Positions 6,001 to 9,000 of a stretch of 64,000 nt of DNA are shown in pieces. The position numbers were made by a program. This DNA is from Escherichia coli (GTDB lineage: Bacteria > Pseudomonadota > Gammaproteobacteria > Enterobacterales > Enterobacteriaceae): NCBI RefSeq assembly GCF_009931435.1, contig NZ_CP043414.1, one strand, 5' to 3'. Every line of letters begins with the position of its first letter. Within the stretch, counting starts at the first letter, position 1.

Positions 6001-9000
6001 CGAATTGATGGAGTTGTTCTGCGGAGATCGGCTCAGCACCAATACCAGCAACGCGCCAGCAGGAAAGATCCAGTTCAGCGAGATCTTTTTCATTCACGCG
6101 GCGCTGGCACAATTCATAGCCAAACGGCGGCGCAACAGAAACGGTGCCGCGATTTTTACTGATCAATTTAAGCCATTGCAGAGGACGCATGGCAAAATCC
6201 TGAGTGCGCAAATAATCTACTGAGAGCTGCGTGGCGACGGGGGTCAGGAGAAAGCCGACCAGTCCCATATCATGGTAGAAAGGCAGCCAGGAGACGCAGC
6301 GGTCGCCAGGGCGTAATTTAATGCCATCGTGGCTTATAGCACGTAGATTAGCCATCACTTCGCGATGGGTGATAATGACGCCACGGGGAAAACGGGTGCT
6401 GCCGGAGGTGTACTGGAGGTAGGCGATATCGTTCGGAACTGGACGCTGGAGTACAACATCGGCTTCCGGTAATGCCTTAAACCAGGCGTGGCTTAAAACA
6501 TGTAATTCGGGGTTGTTATGCGTAGCAGCATTGACCAGTGGCAACCACTCATCACCAGTGATAATGGCTGCGGGCTGGCAACTTGCCAGTAAACCCTGCA
6601 GTTTGGCGCTCCAGGAATCCCGCTGACCGACGCCCATTGGAATTGCCAACGGGACGGCGACTAAGCCGGCATACTGGCAGGCAAAAAAAGCCTCTACAAA
6701 CCCGCTACTCGTTTCGGCAATCAGCGCCACGCGATCGCCTTTTTTCAGATTCAGTGATAACAACCGCTTCGCACCAGCTTCGGCACGCGCTTTTAACGTC
6801 TGATATTCCAGTTGATCTTCAAGTTGGCAACGTCTGTCATAAAAATTCATTCCGGCGCTACTCAGAGCGGCGTAGTCCAAAGCATCAACCAGCGTTGGAA
6901 AATCGGCATAGCGCATAGGTAGGGAATGCGTAAAGATGTTATTAGACATATACACCACGAAAAAAATTGGATATCAGAAATAAAATGACAATAATGCGGT
7001 GGATTATATAGGCATAAAAGATAAATGAGATAGTATTTTCATCGGTGCGATATTGAACATTGATTTAAATAATAGGTTTGGCTTTGTTGTTTTTATTGTG
7101 AATGATATTTAATTTATGAATATATTAAGAAGAAGCCTTGTTTGGTTGCCTTAAATCGACAAAAGGCATTGAGGCGCTTCTGTGTAGTCTCTGACCTTAT
7201 CTTAATTATTAATAAATACTATTTATTCTTTGTTTGTATTCATTGGGTTGATTATTAAGATGCCGTTCGTTGCTGTTGCAATCTGTTTGTCACCGTTAAT
7301 TATTTGTTATCCACAGAGATATGGAATGCGATCTGCTGATGATTAAAATTGAAAAAGTAATTAATAAAAATGACCTTAAGGCATTTATCGCTTTTCCGTC
7401 ATCACTTTATCCCGATGATCCAAACTGGATACCCCCTTTGTTCATTGAACGCAGCGAGCATTTGTCGGCGAAGAATCCGGGGACGGACCATATTATCTGG
7501 CAGGCGTGGGTAGCAAAAAAAGCGGGGCAGATAGTCGGGCGGATTACCGCGCAAATCGATACCTTGCACCGCGAGCGTTACGGTGACGATACCGGTCATT
7601 TTGGCATGATTGACGCCATTGATGATCCGCAGGTTTTTGCCGCGTTGTTTGGCGCAGCGGAAGCATGGTTGAAGTTACAAGGCGCAAGTAAGATCAGCGG
7701 GCCTTTCAGCCTGAATATCAATCAGGAAAGCGGATTACTGATTGAAGGTTTCGACACTCCGCCCTGTGCGATGATGCCGCACGGTAAACCGTGGTATGCC
7801 GCGCATATTGAACAATTGGGTTATCACAAAGGTATTGATTTACTGGCGTGGTGGATGCAACGAACCGATCTCACGTTCTCTCCGGCGCTAAAAAAACTGA
7901 TGGATCAGGTGCGCAAAAAGGTGACCATTCGCTGCATCAAGCGCCAGCGGTTTGCCGAAGAGATGCTGATCCTGCGTGAGATTTTCAACTCTGGCTGGCA
8001 GCACAACTGGGGATTTGTGCCGTTTACCGAACATGAATTTGCGACCATGGGCGATCAACTTAAATATCTGGTGCCGGACGATATGATCTACATCGCTGAG
8101 ATTGGTTCTGCACCCTGCGCGTTTATAGTCGGCTTGCCGAACATCAACGAGGCGATTGCCGATCTGAACGGATCGCTCTTTCCCTTCGGCTGGGCAAAAT
8201 TGCTGTGGCGCTTAAAAGTCAGCGGTGTGCGAACTGCGCGAGTGCCGCTGATGGGCGTGCGTGACGAGTATCAGTTCAGCCGCATCGGCCCGGTGATTGC
8301 GCTGTTATTGATTGAAGCCTTACGCGATCCGTTTGCTCGCCGGAAGATCGATGCGCTGGAGATGTCATGGATCCTCGAAACCAATACAGGCATGAATAAC
8401 ATGCTGGAACGCATTGGAGCGGAGCCGTACAAGCGTTACCGATTGTATGAAAAGCAGATTTGATGGCAGTCACCCCTGCTTCATCTCCAGCGGCACCGCC
8501 GAGCGAATCAAATGGTGGCCTTCCAGTTCGATATCGTGGAGATTCTTTTTCACGGTCCGCACATGATCACGTGCGGCGCGCTGGGCGACGTGCGGCAGTC
8601 GCTGCAACACCGCGTTGTAGATCCGCGCATGTTGGCGATCGATCTGCTTTTTTTGCTGTGGTCGATGGTAGAGATTATTTACGCTGGCAAACACTGAATT
8701 AAACATCAGATCGGTCAATGATTGCAGCGTAAAAACTAGCACCTGATTGTGGGAAGCCTGACAAATGGCAAGATGGAAAGCATGATCCAGCTGCGCGTGT
8801 TCGATCAGCGAAATTTCTTTGTTGTTTTCACTGGCGGCGAGCATTTTTTCATAACAGCGGGTTATCAAAACAAAATCCGCCTGGGTTCCCAGCGTAGCTG
8901 CCAACCTTGCCGATTCGCCTTCCAGCAATGCGCGAACGTCGAGTAGATCGTATAGCGTTCGCGGCTGTGTACTGAACAGATGGATCAGCGGGCTGGTGTC

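What the first reader, a model, noticed from the sequence alone, without database searches (positions are those of the whole stretch)
6959..7320. Long AT-rich divergent control region of an apparently strain-variable locus
The 360 bp spacer between the lipid operon and yghO is markedly AT-rich compared with flanking coding sequence, a hallmark of horizontally acquired, H-NS-silenced promoters. As I recall, K-12 carries an IS5 insertion in yghO and different neighbours (yghQRST), so this junction is probably where gene content differs between strains; the locus may be cryptic under laboratory conditions.
Basis: partly seen in the sequence, partly recalled or inferred. Interest (0 to 1): 0.45.

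Follow-up and report, generated by a model that had tools for sequence, protein, structure and literature searches.

The report
Control region of E. coli ceramide genes
This AT-rich 371-bp gap is the shared, uncharacterised control region between the two divergent halves of E. coli's published five-gene ceramide (sphingolipid) synthesis cluster, which K-12 and O157:H7 have lost; it is real but an ordinary kind of feature.

Summary

It separates aasR-epi-acpR-spt (minus strand) from yghO (plus strand). Published work names these five genes as the E. coli dihydroceramide synthesis genes. The spacer is therefore their divergent control region.

The strain-variability claim is right, but the cause is repeated loss rather than recent gain:
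- About 75% of 5,426 complete E. coli genomes carry the locus.
- K-12 lost 8.5 kb through an IS5-associated deletion that ends 40 bp inside yghO.
- O157:H7 Sakai lost the whole pheV-pitB segment.

Coding GC and codon usage are typical of E. coli. The gene order, with a long AT-rich spacer, recurs in many Enterobacterales.

The 126 bp next to aasR are far more conserved across Escherichia lineages than synonymous sites, so they are under constraint. The middle of the spacer is variable.

H-NS silencing is plausible but untested; no ChIP data for a strain carrying the locus were found. Published BL21(DE3) controls suggest the native aasR/acpR genes are not usefully expressed in the laboratory.

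No RNA family, folding signal or conserved ORF was found. Interest is low to moderate.

The parts
6950..7320 (.). Divergent intergenic control region between aasR and yghO (371 bp, 30.2% GC)
   Evidence: The region is present with at least 80% coverage in 4132 of 5426 complete E. coli genomes.
6950..7075 (-). Block A: the constrained aasR-proximal part, taken to be the aasR promoter, operator and short 5' UTR (inferred)
   Evidence: Block A is 93-98% identical in 10 other Escherichia sequences. That includes lineages whose four-fold degenerate sites in the flanking genes are only 64-89% identical. At population level it is more conserved than block B. The RNA fold z-score is -0.02, so the constraint is probably at the DNA level.
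7003..7008 (-). Perfect sigma-70 -10 hexamer TATAAT (read on the minus strand), 54 nt upstream of the aasR ATG, with a poor -35 (ATCTCA)
   Evidence: My own position-weight scan. The hexamer is invariant in all 11 aligned Escherichia sequences. No transcription start site data are available, so its function is inferred.
7076..7240 (.). Block B: variable AT-rich core with a slightly GC-richer islet at about 7135-7195
   Evidence: Block B is 58-95% identical between Escherichia sequences, at or below the neutral level in the two most divergent lineages. In 482 E. coli genomes it is only 80-90% identical to the window. An IS1 insertion lies at about 7192 in strain Eco_23-3511.
7241..7320 (+). Block C: yghO-proximal part, moderately conserved. 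It presumably holds the yghO ribosome-binding site and part of its promoter or UTR.
   Evidence: 68-96% identity. No promoter close to consensus was found.
7295..7309 (+). ArcA-box-like direct repeat GTTAATTATTTGTTA, 12 nt upstream of the yghO ATG. This is a lead only.
   Evidence: It matches 13 of 15 positions of a consensus I recalled from memory. About 1% of shuffles match as well, but 24 motifs were tested. It is mostly invariant in the Escherichia alignment.
5240..6949 (-). aasR: fatty acyl-AMP ligase, the specialised acyl-ACP synthetase and first gene of the leftward operon
   Evidence: NCBIfam NF006624, 873 bits against a cutoff of 600. It corresponds to ECD_02851 in PMC9386255.
4329..5243 (-). 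epi/cerR: NAD-dependent epimerase/dehydratase-family reductase
   Evidence: annotation. NCBIfam hits are all below cutoff. It corresponds to ECD_02852 'epi' in PMC9386255.
4049..4297 (-). acpR: specialised acyl carrier protein
   Evidence: It corresponds to ECD_02853, which was shown to carry 4'-phosphopantetheine (PMC9386255).
2877..4049 (-). spt: serine palmitoyltransferase
   Evidence: NCBIfam NF047599 equivalog, 599 bits against a cutoff of 500. It corresponds to ECD_02854, whose SPT activity was shown (PMC9386255).
7321..8463 (+). yghO: predicted N-acyltransferase, the 'aca'/bacterial ceramide synthase homologue, transcribed rightward
   Evidence: Named 'aca: yghO ECD_02850' in PMC9386255 Fig. 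9. Sources annotate homologues as N-acetyltransferase or GNAT. It has no Pfam, NCBIfam or PDB sequence hit of its own.
106..2842 (+). ytfJ-like, lptF2 and lptG2: putative sphingolipid export genes of the same locus
   Evidence: NCBIfam hits. LptFG paralogues in the sphingolipid locus of E. coli UTI89 are shown in bioRxiv 10.64898/2026.04.12.717747.
7360..7361 (.). Right end of the K-12 IS5-associated 8.5-kb deletion, 40 nt into yghO
   Evidence: blastn of the K-12 RR1 locus against strain 2013C-4282, plus inspection of the junction sequence. K-12-derived genomes match the window only from 7361 onward.

Best explanation
Window 6950-7320 is the shared, bidirectional regulatory region of the E. 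coli ceramide (sphingolipid) biosynthesis cluster. Leftward it drives aasR-epi-acpR-spt, which makes acyl-AcpR, 3-oxo-sphinganine and the reductase. Rightward it drives yghO, the predicted N-acyltransferase.

Shown:
- the gene identities and the divergent arrangement;
- the extreme AT-richness of the spacer;
- conservation of this architecture across Escherichia and many Enterobacterales;
- strong sequence constraint on the 126 bp next to aasR, which contain an invariant perfect -10 hexamer with a poor -35;
- a fast-evolving central part;
- purifying selection on the flanking genes.

Inferred: both promoters are intrinsically weak and need an activator. The AT-rich tract is probably coated by nucleoid proteins such as H-NS or StpA. 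As a result the cluster is off in standard laboratory culture and switched on by an unidentified signal and activator that act mainly through the conserved aasR-proximal block.

Strain variability comes from repeated IS- or island-associated deletion of an old resident locus, not from recent acquisition.
For: Gene identities:
- NCBIfam hits for Spt (599 bits, cutoff 500), the fatty acyl-AMP ligase (873 bits, cutoff 600), LptF/LptG and YtfJ, and the RefSeq annotation.
- PMC9386255 names ECD_02850-02854 (yghO, aasR, epi, acpR, spt) as the five clustered dihydroceramide genes of BL21(DE3). It also shows that E. coli AasR, AcpR and SPT together make 3-oxo-sphinganine.

Composition: the spacer is 30.2% GC, against 51-55% for most flanking genes (acpR 41%).

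Architecture: the arrangement spt, acpR, epi, aasR, spacer, yghO is conserved in about 40 loci from 15 genera. The spacers are 270-1095 bp long and mostly 9-30 GC points below their flanking genes, about 6-10 points in Rosenbergiella and Pseudomonas capeferrum.

Constraint:
- Block A is 93% identical to lineages where four-fold sites are 64-80% identical. Blocks B and C are 58-72% identical in the same comparisons.
- Flanking proteins are 92-98% identical despite that synonymous divergence, which indicates purifying selection on functional genes.

Weak promoters: the consensus scan finds only one weak plus-strand site, 325 nt upstream of yghO and no more than chance predicts. My position-weight scan finds only TATAAT with a poor -35 on the aasR side.

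Laboratory silence: BL21(DE3) has an intact locus. Yet empty-vector cells give no 3-oxo-sphinganine, and overexpressing SPT alone does not change the lipid profile.

H-NS plausibility: the only other long intergenic region this AT-rich in the window, upstream of sslE, is a documented H-NS target (PMC5012682). IS1, which favours AT-rich DNA (my own knowledge), sits inside the spacer in two genomes.
Against: - There are no transcription start, ChIP or expression data for this spacer in any strain.
- The H-NS high-affinity motif TCGATAAATT is not enriched: one site with at most two mismatches, against 1.05 expected.
- The BL21(DE3) evidence for silence comes from negative controls in someone else's experiment. 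Those controls were not designed to test native expression, and they say nothing about yghO.
- The constrained block could reflect something other than an operator, such as a UTR element, although no RNA structure signal was found.
- No candidate regulator gene lies in the locus.
Confidence: 0.6

Rival explanations
1. The spacer is the AT-rich promoter of a recently horizontally acquired island, silenced by H-NS because it is foreign DNA. It marks the boundary where strains differ in gene content.
For: - The spacer is 30% GC.
- The locus is missing from K-12 and O157:H7 Sakai and from about 25% of complete genomes.
- Outside Escherichia the locus sits in other genomic contexts, and once on a contig carrying a plasmid repBA pseudoknot. 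Ancient transfer between Enterobacterales is therefore plausible.
Against: - Coding GC, GC3 and codon usage are typical of E. coli.
- No integrase, tRNA or repeat borders lie at the locus.
- All four other Escherichia lineages sampled carry it at the same glcC-adjacent site.
- Absence is explained by deletions with different endpoints, involving IS5, IS1 and SpLE3.
- None of the deletion endpoints examined in K-12, LR-06, OkiPb01697 or NR3736 lies in the spacer, although strain 21AH057 has an IS1 at about 7013 with the sequence to its right replaced.
Confidence: 0.12
2. The locus is a decaying relic. On this view the spacer is neutral, non-functional AT-rich DNA whose composition merely reflects mutational bias in unconstrained sequence.
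For: - The locus is lost repeatedly.
- Some strains carry pseudogenes: a frameshifted lptF in 2013C-4282 and an internal stop in aasR in Eco_23-3511.
- Blocks B and C diverge at about the neutral rate.
- No product is seen in BL21(DE3).
Against: - Block A is much more conserved than four-fold sites.
- Flanking proteins are 92-98% identical while synonymous sites are 64-89% identical.
- The locus is intact in about 75% of genomes.
- The E. coli enzymes are active when expressed.
Confidence: 0.1
3. The spacer encodes its own product or a structured cis-acting RNA, such as a small RNA, a riboswitch-like leader or a small protein, rather than acting only as protein-binding DNA.
For: - At 371 bp, the spacer is longer than a minimal divergent promoter needs.
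- Block A is highly conserved.
- A 38-codon ORF starts at about 7142 on the plus strand.
Against: - There is no Rfam match even at E of 1 or less.
- Fold z-scores are -0.02 and -0.28.
- The ORF lies in the variable block, and indels in other Escherichia lineages break it.
- No intrinsic terminator is predicted.
Confidence: 0.05
4. Control is by a specific global regulator rather than by H-NS. One candidate is ArcA-P binding the GTTAATTATTTGTTA box just upstream of the yghO start, which would tie ceramide synthesis to oxygen or redox state.
For: The box matches 13 of 15 positions of the ArcA consensus at 7295-7309. About 1% of shuffles match as well. The box is largely invariant across Escherichia.
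Against: - I recalled the consensus from memory.
- 24 motifs were tested, so one hit at the 1% level is expected about a quarter of the time.
- AT-rich motifs match AT-rich DNA easily.
- The site lies on the yghO side, not in the most constrained block.
- ArcA-P is inactive in aerobic culture, so ArcA repression of yghO would not account for the apparent lack of aasR/acpR expression in aerobically grown BL21(DE3).
Confidence: 0.1

Closest known systems
Sphingolipid (ceramide) synthesis locus of Caulobacter crescentus (ccna_01212-01226 / CC_1154, CC_1162-1165) and its described E. coli BL21(DE3)/UTI89 counterpart
   Same: It has the same five gene types (spt, acpR, aasR, epi/cerR, aca/bCerS) plus LptF/LptG paralogues. 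Only these two organisms are reported to have all five clustered (PMC9386255; bioRxiv 10.64898/2026.04.12.717747). The window holds the E. coli version.
   Different: The literature describes the genes, not this spacer. I found no promoter, regulator or expression condition reported for E. coli. Native sphingolipid production by E. coli is not documented in the papers read.
H-NS-repressed AT-rich promoter of sslE (yghJ) in the same window (17911-18394)
   Same: It has comparable length and AT-richness (484 bp at 28.7% GC, against 371 bp at 30.2% GC). It lies in the same accessory pheV-pitB chromosomal segment.
   Different: For sslE, H-NS binding and derepression in an hns mutant have been measured (PMC5012682). 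For the aasR-yghO spacer nothing has been measured. The sslE region is unidirectional, whereas this one is divergent.
Cryptic H-NS-silenced operons of E. coli that IS insertion can activate, such as bgl (recalled from general knowledge, not tested here)
   Same: There is an AT-rich upstream region, apparent silence in laboratory culture, and IS elements found inserted in the control region in some isolates (IS1 at about 7013 and about 7192).
   Different: There is no evidence that the IS1 insertions activate anything. One is accompanied by loss of the sequence on the yghO side of the IS1, and the other sits next to an aasR with an internal stop.
K-12 yghO / IS5 (insH) junction
   Same: This is the same chromosomal site. 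K-12 retains yghO from codon 14 onward, 95.9% identical over the retained part to the 2013C-4282 allele, which is itself 98.7% identical in protein to the window's yghO.
   Different: K-12 lacks the spacer, the whole aasR-spt operon, lptF2G2, ytfJ2 and the 3' end of yghQ. The 4-bp flanks TTAG and TTAA are not a target duplication, which indicates an IS5-associated deletion rather than a simple insertion.

Membership tests
Rhodobacteria-type ceramide synthesis gene cluster | Serine palmitoyltransferase gene | tested here: met
   NCBIfam NF047599 equivalog, 599.4 bits against a cutoff of 500.
Rhodobacteria-type ceramide synthesis gene cluster | Specialised ACP gene immediately upstream of spt, in the same operon | tested here: met
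   An 82-aa ACP lies at 4049-4297 and abuts spt. Its scores against housekeeping AcpP models are all below cutoff, which fits a specialised ACP. It corresponds to AcpR ECD_02853.
Rhodobacteria-type ceramide synthesis gene cluster | Specialised acyl-ACP synthetase (AasR) nearby | tested here: met
   Fatty acyl-AMP ligase NF006624, 873.5 bits against a cutoff of 600. It corresponds to ECD_02851.
Rhodobacteria-type ceramide synthesis gene cluster | Reductase (epi/CerR) | tested here: inconclusive
   The protein belongs to the short-chain dehydrogenase/epimerase superfamily, but every family hit is below its cutoff. The assignment rests on PMC9386255 (ECD_02852).
Rhodobacteria-type ceramide synthesis gene cluster | N-acyltransferase (aca/bCerS) homologous to Caulobacter CC_1154 | not tested
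   YghO has no Pfam, NCBIfam or PDB sequence match. Sources annotate homologues as GNAT or N-acetyltransferase. Homology to CC_1154 is taken from PMC9386255 Fig. 9; I did not align the two proteins.
Rhodobacteria-type ceramide synthesis gene cluster | Ceramide or sphingolipid actually produced by the host | not testable with these tools
   Only heterologous overexpression data exist (3-oxo-sphinganine from E. coli AasR, AcpR and SPT). Empty-vector BL21(DE3) shows none.
H-NS-silenced promoter region | AT content far above the genome average over at least 300 bp | tested here: met
   30.2% GC against 52% for the window. Only 0.4% of windows are as low.
H-NS-silenced promoter region | H-NS occupancy in vivo or binding in vitro | not testable with these tools
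   I found no dataset for a strain carrying the locus. K-12 and O157:H7 Sakai lack it. The H10407 paper supplies only CRP sites.
H-NS-silenced promoter region | Derepression in an hns (or stpA) mutant | not testable with these tools
   No data found.
H-NS-silenced promoter region | High-affinity nucleation motif (TCGATAAATT-like) | tested here: not met
   One site with at most two mismatches, against 1.05 expected from shuffles. The motif is helpful but not obligatory for H-NS binding, so this only weakens the case.
Recently acquired genomic island | Atypical coding GC or codon usage | tested here: not met
   Locus GC is 51.6% and GC3 55.5%. Core genes in the window are 53.3% and 59.3%. Per-gene codon distance is 0.12-0.16 (acpR 0.21), against 0.09-0.20 for core genes.
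Recently acquired genomic island | Mobility signatures at the borders (tRNA, integrase, direct repeats) | tested here: not met
   Annotated neighbours are yghQRST/pitB on one side and glcC/glcDEFGBA on the other. There is no integrase or tRNA at the locus edges. pheV lies 28 kb away, beyond the type II secretion genes.
Recently acquired genomic island | Presence or absence that does not follow phylogeny | tested here: inconclusive
   The locus is absent from about 25% of genomes. The cases examined are deletions. It is present at the same site in four other Escherichia lineages. No tree was built.
Divergent (bidirectional) promoter region | Two functionally linked transcription units that start back to back | tested here: met
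   aasR runs leftward from 6949 and yghO rightward from 7321. The arrangement is conserved in about 40 loci from 15 genera.
Divergent (bidirectional) promoter region | Mapped transcription start sites inside the spacer | not testable with these tools
   Only sequence predictions are available: TATAAT at 7008-7003 on the minus strand and no strong plus-strand promoter.

The most novel reading that the evidence does not exclude
Most natural E. coli can make ceramide-type sphingolipids, and this spacer is the switch. The invariant 126-bp aasR-proximal block would be the operator of an unidentified activator that overcomes nucleoid-protein silencing in a host or environmental condition never reproduced in the laboratory. 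The two best-studied strains, K-12 and O157:H7, both lack the locus, which would explain why the lipid class is regarded as absent from E. coli.
Probability: 0.3. Interest if true: 0.6.

Novelty: new member of a known kind. Interest (0 to 1): 0.3.

Why it matters
E. coli is usually taught as making only three major membrane phospholipids. Yet about three quarters of complete genomes carry an intact five-gene ceramide pathway under purifying selection, together with LptFG-like exporters.

Published work has characterised the enzymes but not when the genes are expressed. The spacer is where that question can be addressed, through reporter fusions, ChIP and pull-downs on a defined 371-bp fragment with a 126-bp constrained core.

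If the locus is switched on in the gut or under envelope stress, that would bear on outer-membrane biology, on host signalling through bacterial sphingolipids, and on the use of BL21 and Nissle as chassis strains. As a sequence feature, though, it is an ordinary AT-rich divergent promoter region.

Tried and rejected
- Known RNA families in 6700-7600 at E of 1 or less: none. In six long-spacer loci at gathering score, the only match was an unrelated plasmid repBA pseudoknot.
- RNA folding of both candidate leaders: z-scores of -0.02 and -0.28, so no structure signal.
- Conserved small ORFs in the spacers of 17 genera: none.
- Repeats in the spacer: only short AT-rich inverted repeats of the kind chance gives.
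- Sigma-70 consensus scan: one weak site, fewer than the shuffles give. My own position-weight scan found no strong promoter.
- H-NS motif: not enriched.
- Scan with 24 transcription-factor or sigma consensus sequences recalled from memory: only the ArcA-like box stood out, and it is not significant after multiple testing.
- Homology between the Escherichia spacer and the roughly 100-nt element conserved in other genera: none by blastn or by nhmmer --max at E of 100 or less. A by-eye resemblance at 7160-7180 (AAAAGGCATTGAGG) was therefore dropped.
- RNAalifold on that element: zero pairs.
- H-NS or expression data: searches on yghO, ECB_/ECD_ locus tags, UTI89 ceramide, H10407 ChIP-seq and H-NS ChIP in UPEC/BL21 gave nothing on this locus. 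Sakai ChIP data would be useless because the locus is deleted there.
- YghO family assignment by Pfam, NCBIfam and PDB sequence search: no hits.
- Nat Chem Biol 2022 paper on bacterial ceramide synthesis: not held in the library.
- Mapping the 2013C-4282 annotation onto the window by a fixed offset failed because of indels. I redid it with tblastn.
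Full report
**1. The observation**

Window 6959-7320 is 29.8% GC in a 64-kb window that averages 52.0%. Only 0.4% of 362-bp windows are as AT-rich (profile).

The left boundary is slightly off. The mechanical ORF list starts the minus-strand gene at a GTG at 6958. RefSeq annotation of a 99.8%-identical genome, and tblastn of its protein, both place the start at the ATG at 6949. The true spacer is therefore 6950-7320, 371 bp and 30.2% GC.

Of 12 intergenic regions of at least 50 bp in the first 45 kb, only two others are comparable: the one upstream of sslE (28.7% GC) and a short 65-bp pppA-gspS2 gap (29.2%). 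The other nine are 40-57% GC. They sit almost entirely in islands (SpLE3 effectors, capsule region 2) or a few promoter regions.

**2. What flanks it**

On the minus strand lie four genes:
- a fatty acyl-AMP ligase (5240-6949; NF006624, 873 bits, cutoff 600);
- an NAD-dependent epimerase/dehydratase-family protein (4329-5243);
- an 82-aa acyl carrier protein (4049-4297);
- a serine palmitoyltransferase (2877-4049; NF047599 equivalog, 599 bits, cutoff 500).

On the plus strand lies yghO (7321-8463). Further left are a YtfJ-family gene and LptF/LptG paralogues. To the right are glcC, glcDEFGBA, sslE and the type II secretion genes, then pheV.

This cluster is already in the literature. PMC9386255 names BL21(DE3) ECD_02851 (aasR), 02852 (epi), 02853 (acpR), 02854 (spt) and 'yghO ECD_02850' (aca, N-acyltransferase) as the five dihydroceramide genes. 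It notes that only Caulobacter and E. coli BL21 have all five clustered. It also shows that the E. coli AcpR carries phosphopantetheine and that E. coli AasR, AcpR and SPT together make 3-oxo-sphinganine. A 2026 preprint draws the 'sphingolipid operons' of E. coli UTI89 with LptFG paralogues.

The spacer is therefore the divergent control region of the E. coli ceramide synthesis genes. None of the papers I could search says anything about its promoters or regulation.

**3. Strain variability**

The spacer is present with at least 80% coverage in 4132 of 5426 complete E. coli genomes. The 9.3-kb stretch 1-9300 is present in 4052, partial in 573 and absent in 801.

K-12 lineages match only from window 7361 onward. 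Direct comparison shows IS5 replacing 8,498 bp, from mid-yghQ to 40 nt into yghO. The 4-bp flanks differ (TTAG and TTAA), so this is an IS5-associated deletion rather than a simple insertion.

Other strains show other events:
- O157:H7 Sakai lacks everything from pheV to a truncated pitB, with SpLE3 in its place.
- One strain has IS1-bounded loss starting upstream of ytfJ2.
- One has a replacement beginning inside lptG2.
- One has a replacement beginning inside aasR.

yghQ, yghR, yghS and yghT are also the upstream neighbours in strains that keep the locus. They are not 'different neighbours'. The spacer lies inside the variable segment and is not a recurrent junction, although one strain (21AH057) has an IS1-bounded break inside it at about 7013.

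**4. Is it foreign DNA?**

The coding genes show no compositional anomaly. The pooled locus is 51.6% GC with GC3 of 55.5%, against 53.3% and 59.3% for core genes in the window. Per-gene codon-usage distances are 0.12-0.16 (acpR, which is short, 0.21), against 0.09-0.20 for core genes.

A scan of one genome per species found the same arrangement next to glcC in four other Escherichia lineages. It also found the same divergent arrangement, in other chromosomal contexts, in:
- Shimwellia, Citrobacter, Pluralibacter, Pseudocitrobacter and Serratia;
- Tatumella, Klebsiella indica, Erwinia, Rosenbergiella and Cedecea;
- Sodalis, Hafnia, Pantoea, and even Pseudomonas capeferrum.

One of these loci (Pantoea brenneri) is on a contig with a plasmid repBA pseudoknot.

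The locus is therefore an old resident of Escherichia that is repeatedly lost. Ancient transfer among Enterobacterales is plausible; recent acquisition is not supported.

The flanking proteins are 92-98% identical between Escherichia lineages whose four-fold degenerate sites are only 64-89% identical. The genes are thus under purifying selection and presumably used in nature.

**5. Anatomy of the spacer**

A long AT-rich spacer is a conserved property of the locus. Across about 40 loci the spacer is 270-1095 bp long. It is mostly 9-30 GC points below its flanking genes, and about 6-10 points below them in Rosenbergiella and Pseudomonas capeferrum.

Within Escherichia the spacer divides into three parts:
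- **Block A (6950-7075, next to aasR).** It is 93-98% identical in all ten comparison sequences. That includes the two most divergent lineages, where neutral sites are 64-80% identical.
- **Block B (7076-7240).** It is 58-68% identical in those two lineages.
- **Block C (7241-7320).** It is 68-72% identical in the same comparison.

Across E. coli genomes block A is also more conserved than block B. The numbers of genomes in each identity band, relative to the window, are:

| Identity to window | Block A | Block B |
|---|---|---|
| 95-99% | 3130 | 1450 |
| 90-95% | 993 | 2179 |
| 80-90% | 1 | 482 |

Block A contains an invariant perfect TATAAT on the aasR strand (7008 to 7003), 54 nt from the ATG, with a poor -35. 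The tool's consensus scan found a single weak plus-strand site at 6968-6995, which is fewer than the shuffles give.

I found no sign that the spacer encodes anything:
- no Rfam match at E of 1 or less;
- fold z-scores of -0.02 and -0.28;
- no predicted terminator;
- the only ORF (38 codons) lies in the variable block and is broken by indels in other lineages.

The constraint on block A is therefore most simply read as protein-binding DNA: a promoter plus operator, with a short leader.

**6. Regulation: what can and cannot be said**

Weak promoter elements together with extreme AT-richness are the usual signature of promoters that are repressed by nucleoid proteins and depend on activators.

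Support for silence in the laboratory comes from BL21(DE3). Its locus is intact, yet empty-vector cells and extracts give no 3-oxo-sphinganine. Overexpressing SPT alone leaves the lipid profile unchanged, so the chromosomal aasR and acpR do not supply substrate. This evidence is indirect.

Support for H-NS is by analogy only. The other long AT-rich intergenic region in this window, the sslE promoter, binds H-NS and is derepressed 2.2- to 3.5-fold in hns mutants at 22 °C (PMC5012682). The H-NS high-affinity motif is not enriched here. I found no ChIP or mutant data for any strain carrying the locus; the classic K-12 and Sakai datasets cannot cover it.

A scan with 24 consensus motifs recalled from memory gave one notable hit, an ArcA-box-like GTTAATTATTTGTTA at 7295-7309. 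With that many motifs tested it is only a lead.

IS1 sits inside the spacer in two genomes. This fits an AT-rich IS target but gives no evidence of activation.

**7. Comparison with other genera**

In genera with spacers of 600-800 bp there is a non-coding block of about 100 nt that is conserved across genera. Its core is AAAAGCATTAAGTGGTAAAAAAT..AATGC, in the yghO sense, 90-480 nt upstream of yghO. It has no Rfam match, no consensus RNA structure and no conserved ORF, so it is probably a promoter or operator module.

Escherichia, Pseudocitrobacter and Citrobacter youngae lack it (nhmmer --max, E of 100 or less). The Escherichia control region has therefore been remodelled relative to other Enterobacterales.

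**8. Verdict**

The feature is real. Its identity is clear: it is the divergent control region of a published but under-studied ceramide synthesis cluster.

In kind it is an ordinary AT-rich bidirectional promoter region. Its value is as the handle for asking when E. coli expresses a sphingolipid pathway. I put interest at about 0.3.

Noticed in passing
L016 (Serratia) spacer positions about 324-470, with the equivalent in L010, L011, L012, L014, L022, L024, L026, L028, L037-L041, L045, L046 and L049: A non-coding block of about 100 nt is conserved across genera in the aasR-yghO spacer. Its core is GCATTAAGTGGTAAA, followed 4-9 nt later in many genera by AATGC, with upstream boxes TAAACAGTATGCCG and AAAAGTGAA. 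It has no Rfam match, no consensus RNA fold and no ORF. It is absent from Escherichia, Pseudocitrobacter and Citrobacter youngae.
   Followed up: partly
window 17911-18394: This is the second very AT-rich intergenic region (28.7% GC), upstream of sslE. Published work shows this promoter is bound by H-NS and modulated by Fis (PMC5012682).
   Followed up: partly
window 7360/7361; L002 7807-9000: The K-12 IS5 has non-matching 4-bp flanks (TTAG on the left, TTAA on the right) and replaces 8,498 bp. RefSeq nevertheless annotates a 378-aa 'YghO' in K-12 whose start lies inside the IS5 end.
   Followed up: yes
L050 (O157:H7 Sakai) 2168-26853: In Sakai the phage-like element SpLE3 at pheV abuts a truncated pitB. 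The whole pheV-pitB segment is missing, including the type II secretion beta genes, sslE, the glc operon, yghO, the sphingolipid locus and yghQRST.
   Followed up: partly
L060 about 2564 (window about 7013); L061 about 2611-3400 (window about 7192): There are independent IS1 insertions inside the spacer in strains 21AH057 and Eco_23-3511. The first is accompanied by loss of the sequence to its right, including yghO. The second is accompanied by an internal stop in aasR.
   Followed up: partly
L040 18448-18573: A PK-repBA plasmid replication-control pseudoknot (Rfam RF01089, 94.7 bits) lies on the same 25.9-kb Pantoea brenneri contig as the sphingolipid locus. This suggests the locus is plasmid-borne there.
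   Followed up: no
window 8464-8472, compared with L001 13565-13702: The window has only a few bases between the convergent yghO and glcC. The otherwise near-identical strain 2013C-4282 has a 138-bp, 61% GC insert there, possibly a REP-type element.
   Followed up: no
window 35011-35338 (tRNA-Phe at 35158-35233): pheV in this strain has no island. Strain 2013C-4282 carries a group 2 capsule (kps) cluster and IS remnants between yghD and pheV, and the window strain goes straight from yghD to pheV and yqgA.
   Followed up: partly
window 18395-22954: SslE is only 90.9% identical in protein between the window and strain 2013C-4282, whereas neighbouring genes are 96-100% identical. This points to distinct sslE alleles or recombination.
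   Followed up: no
window 696-1766, compared with L001 5798-6867: lptF2 is intact in the window (356 aa) but is annotated as a frameshifted pseudogene in the closely related strain 2013C-4282.
   Followed up: no
window 6950-7320 compared with L008 (Escherichia whittamii): The window's spacer is 94-95% identical to that of E. whittamii in all three blocks, although aasR four-fold sites are only 64% identical between the two. This mosaic suggests recombination across the spacer and yghO.
   Followed up: no
window 6960-6966 and 6976: The window's block A allele is rare: only 21 genomes are at least 99% identical to it. It differs from the common allele by an extra A in the A-run just upstream of the aasR ribosome-binding site and by an A-to-G change.
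   Followed up: partly
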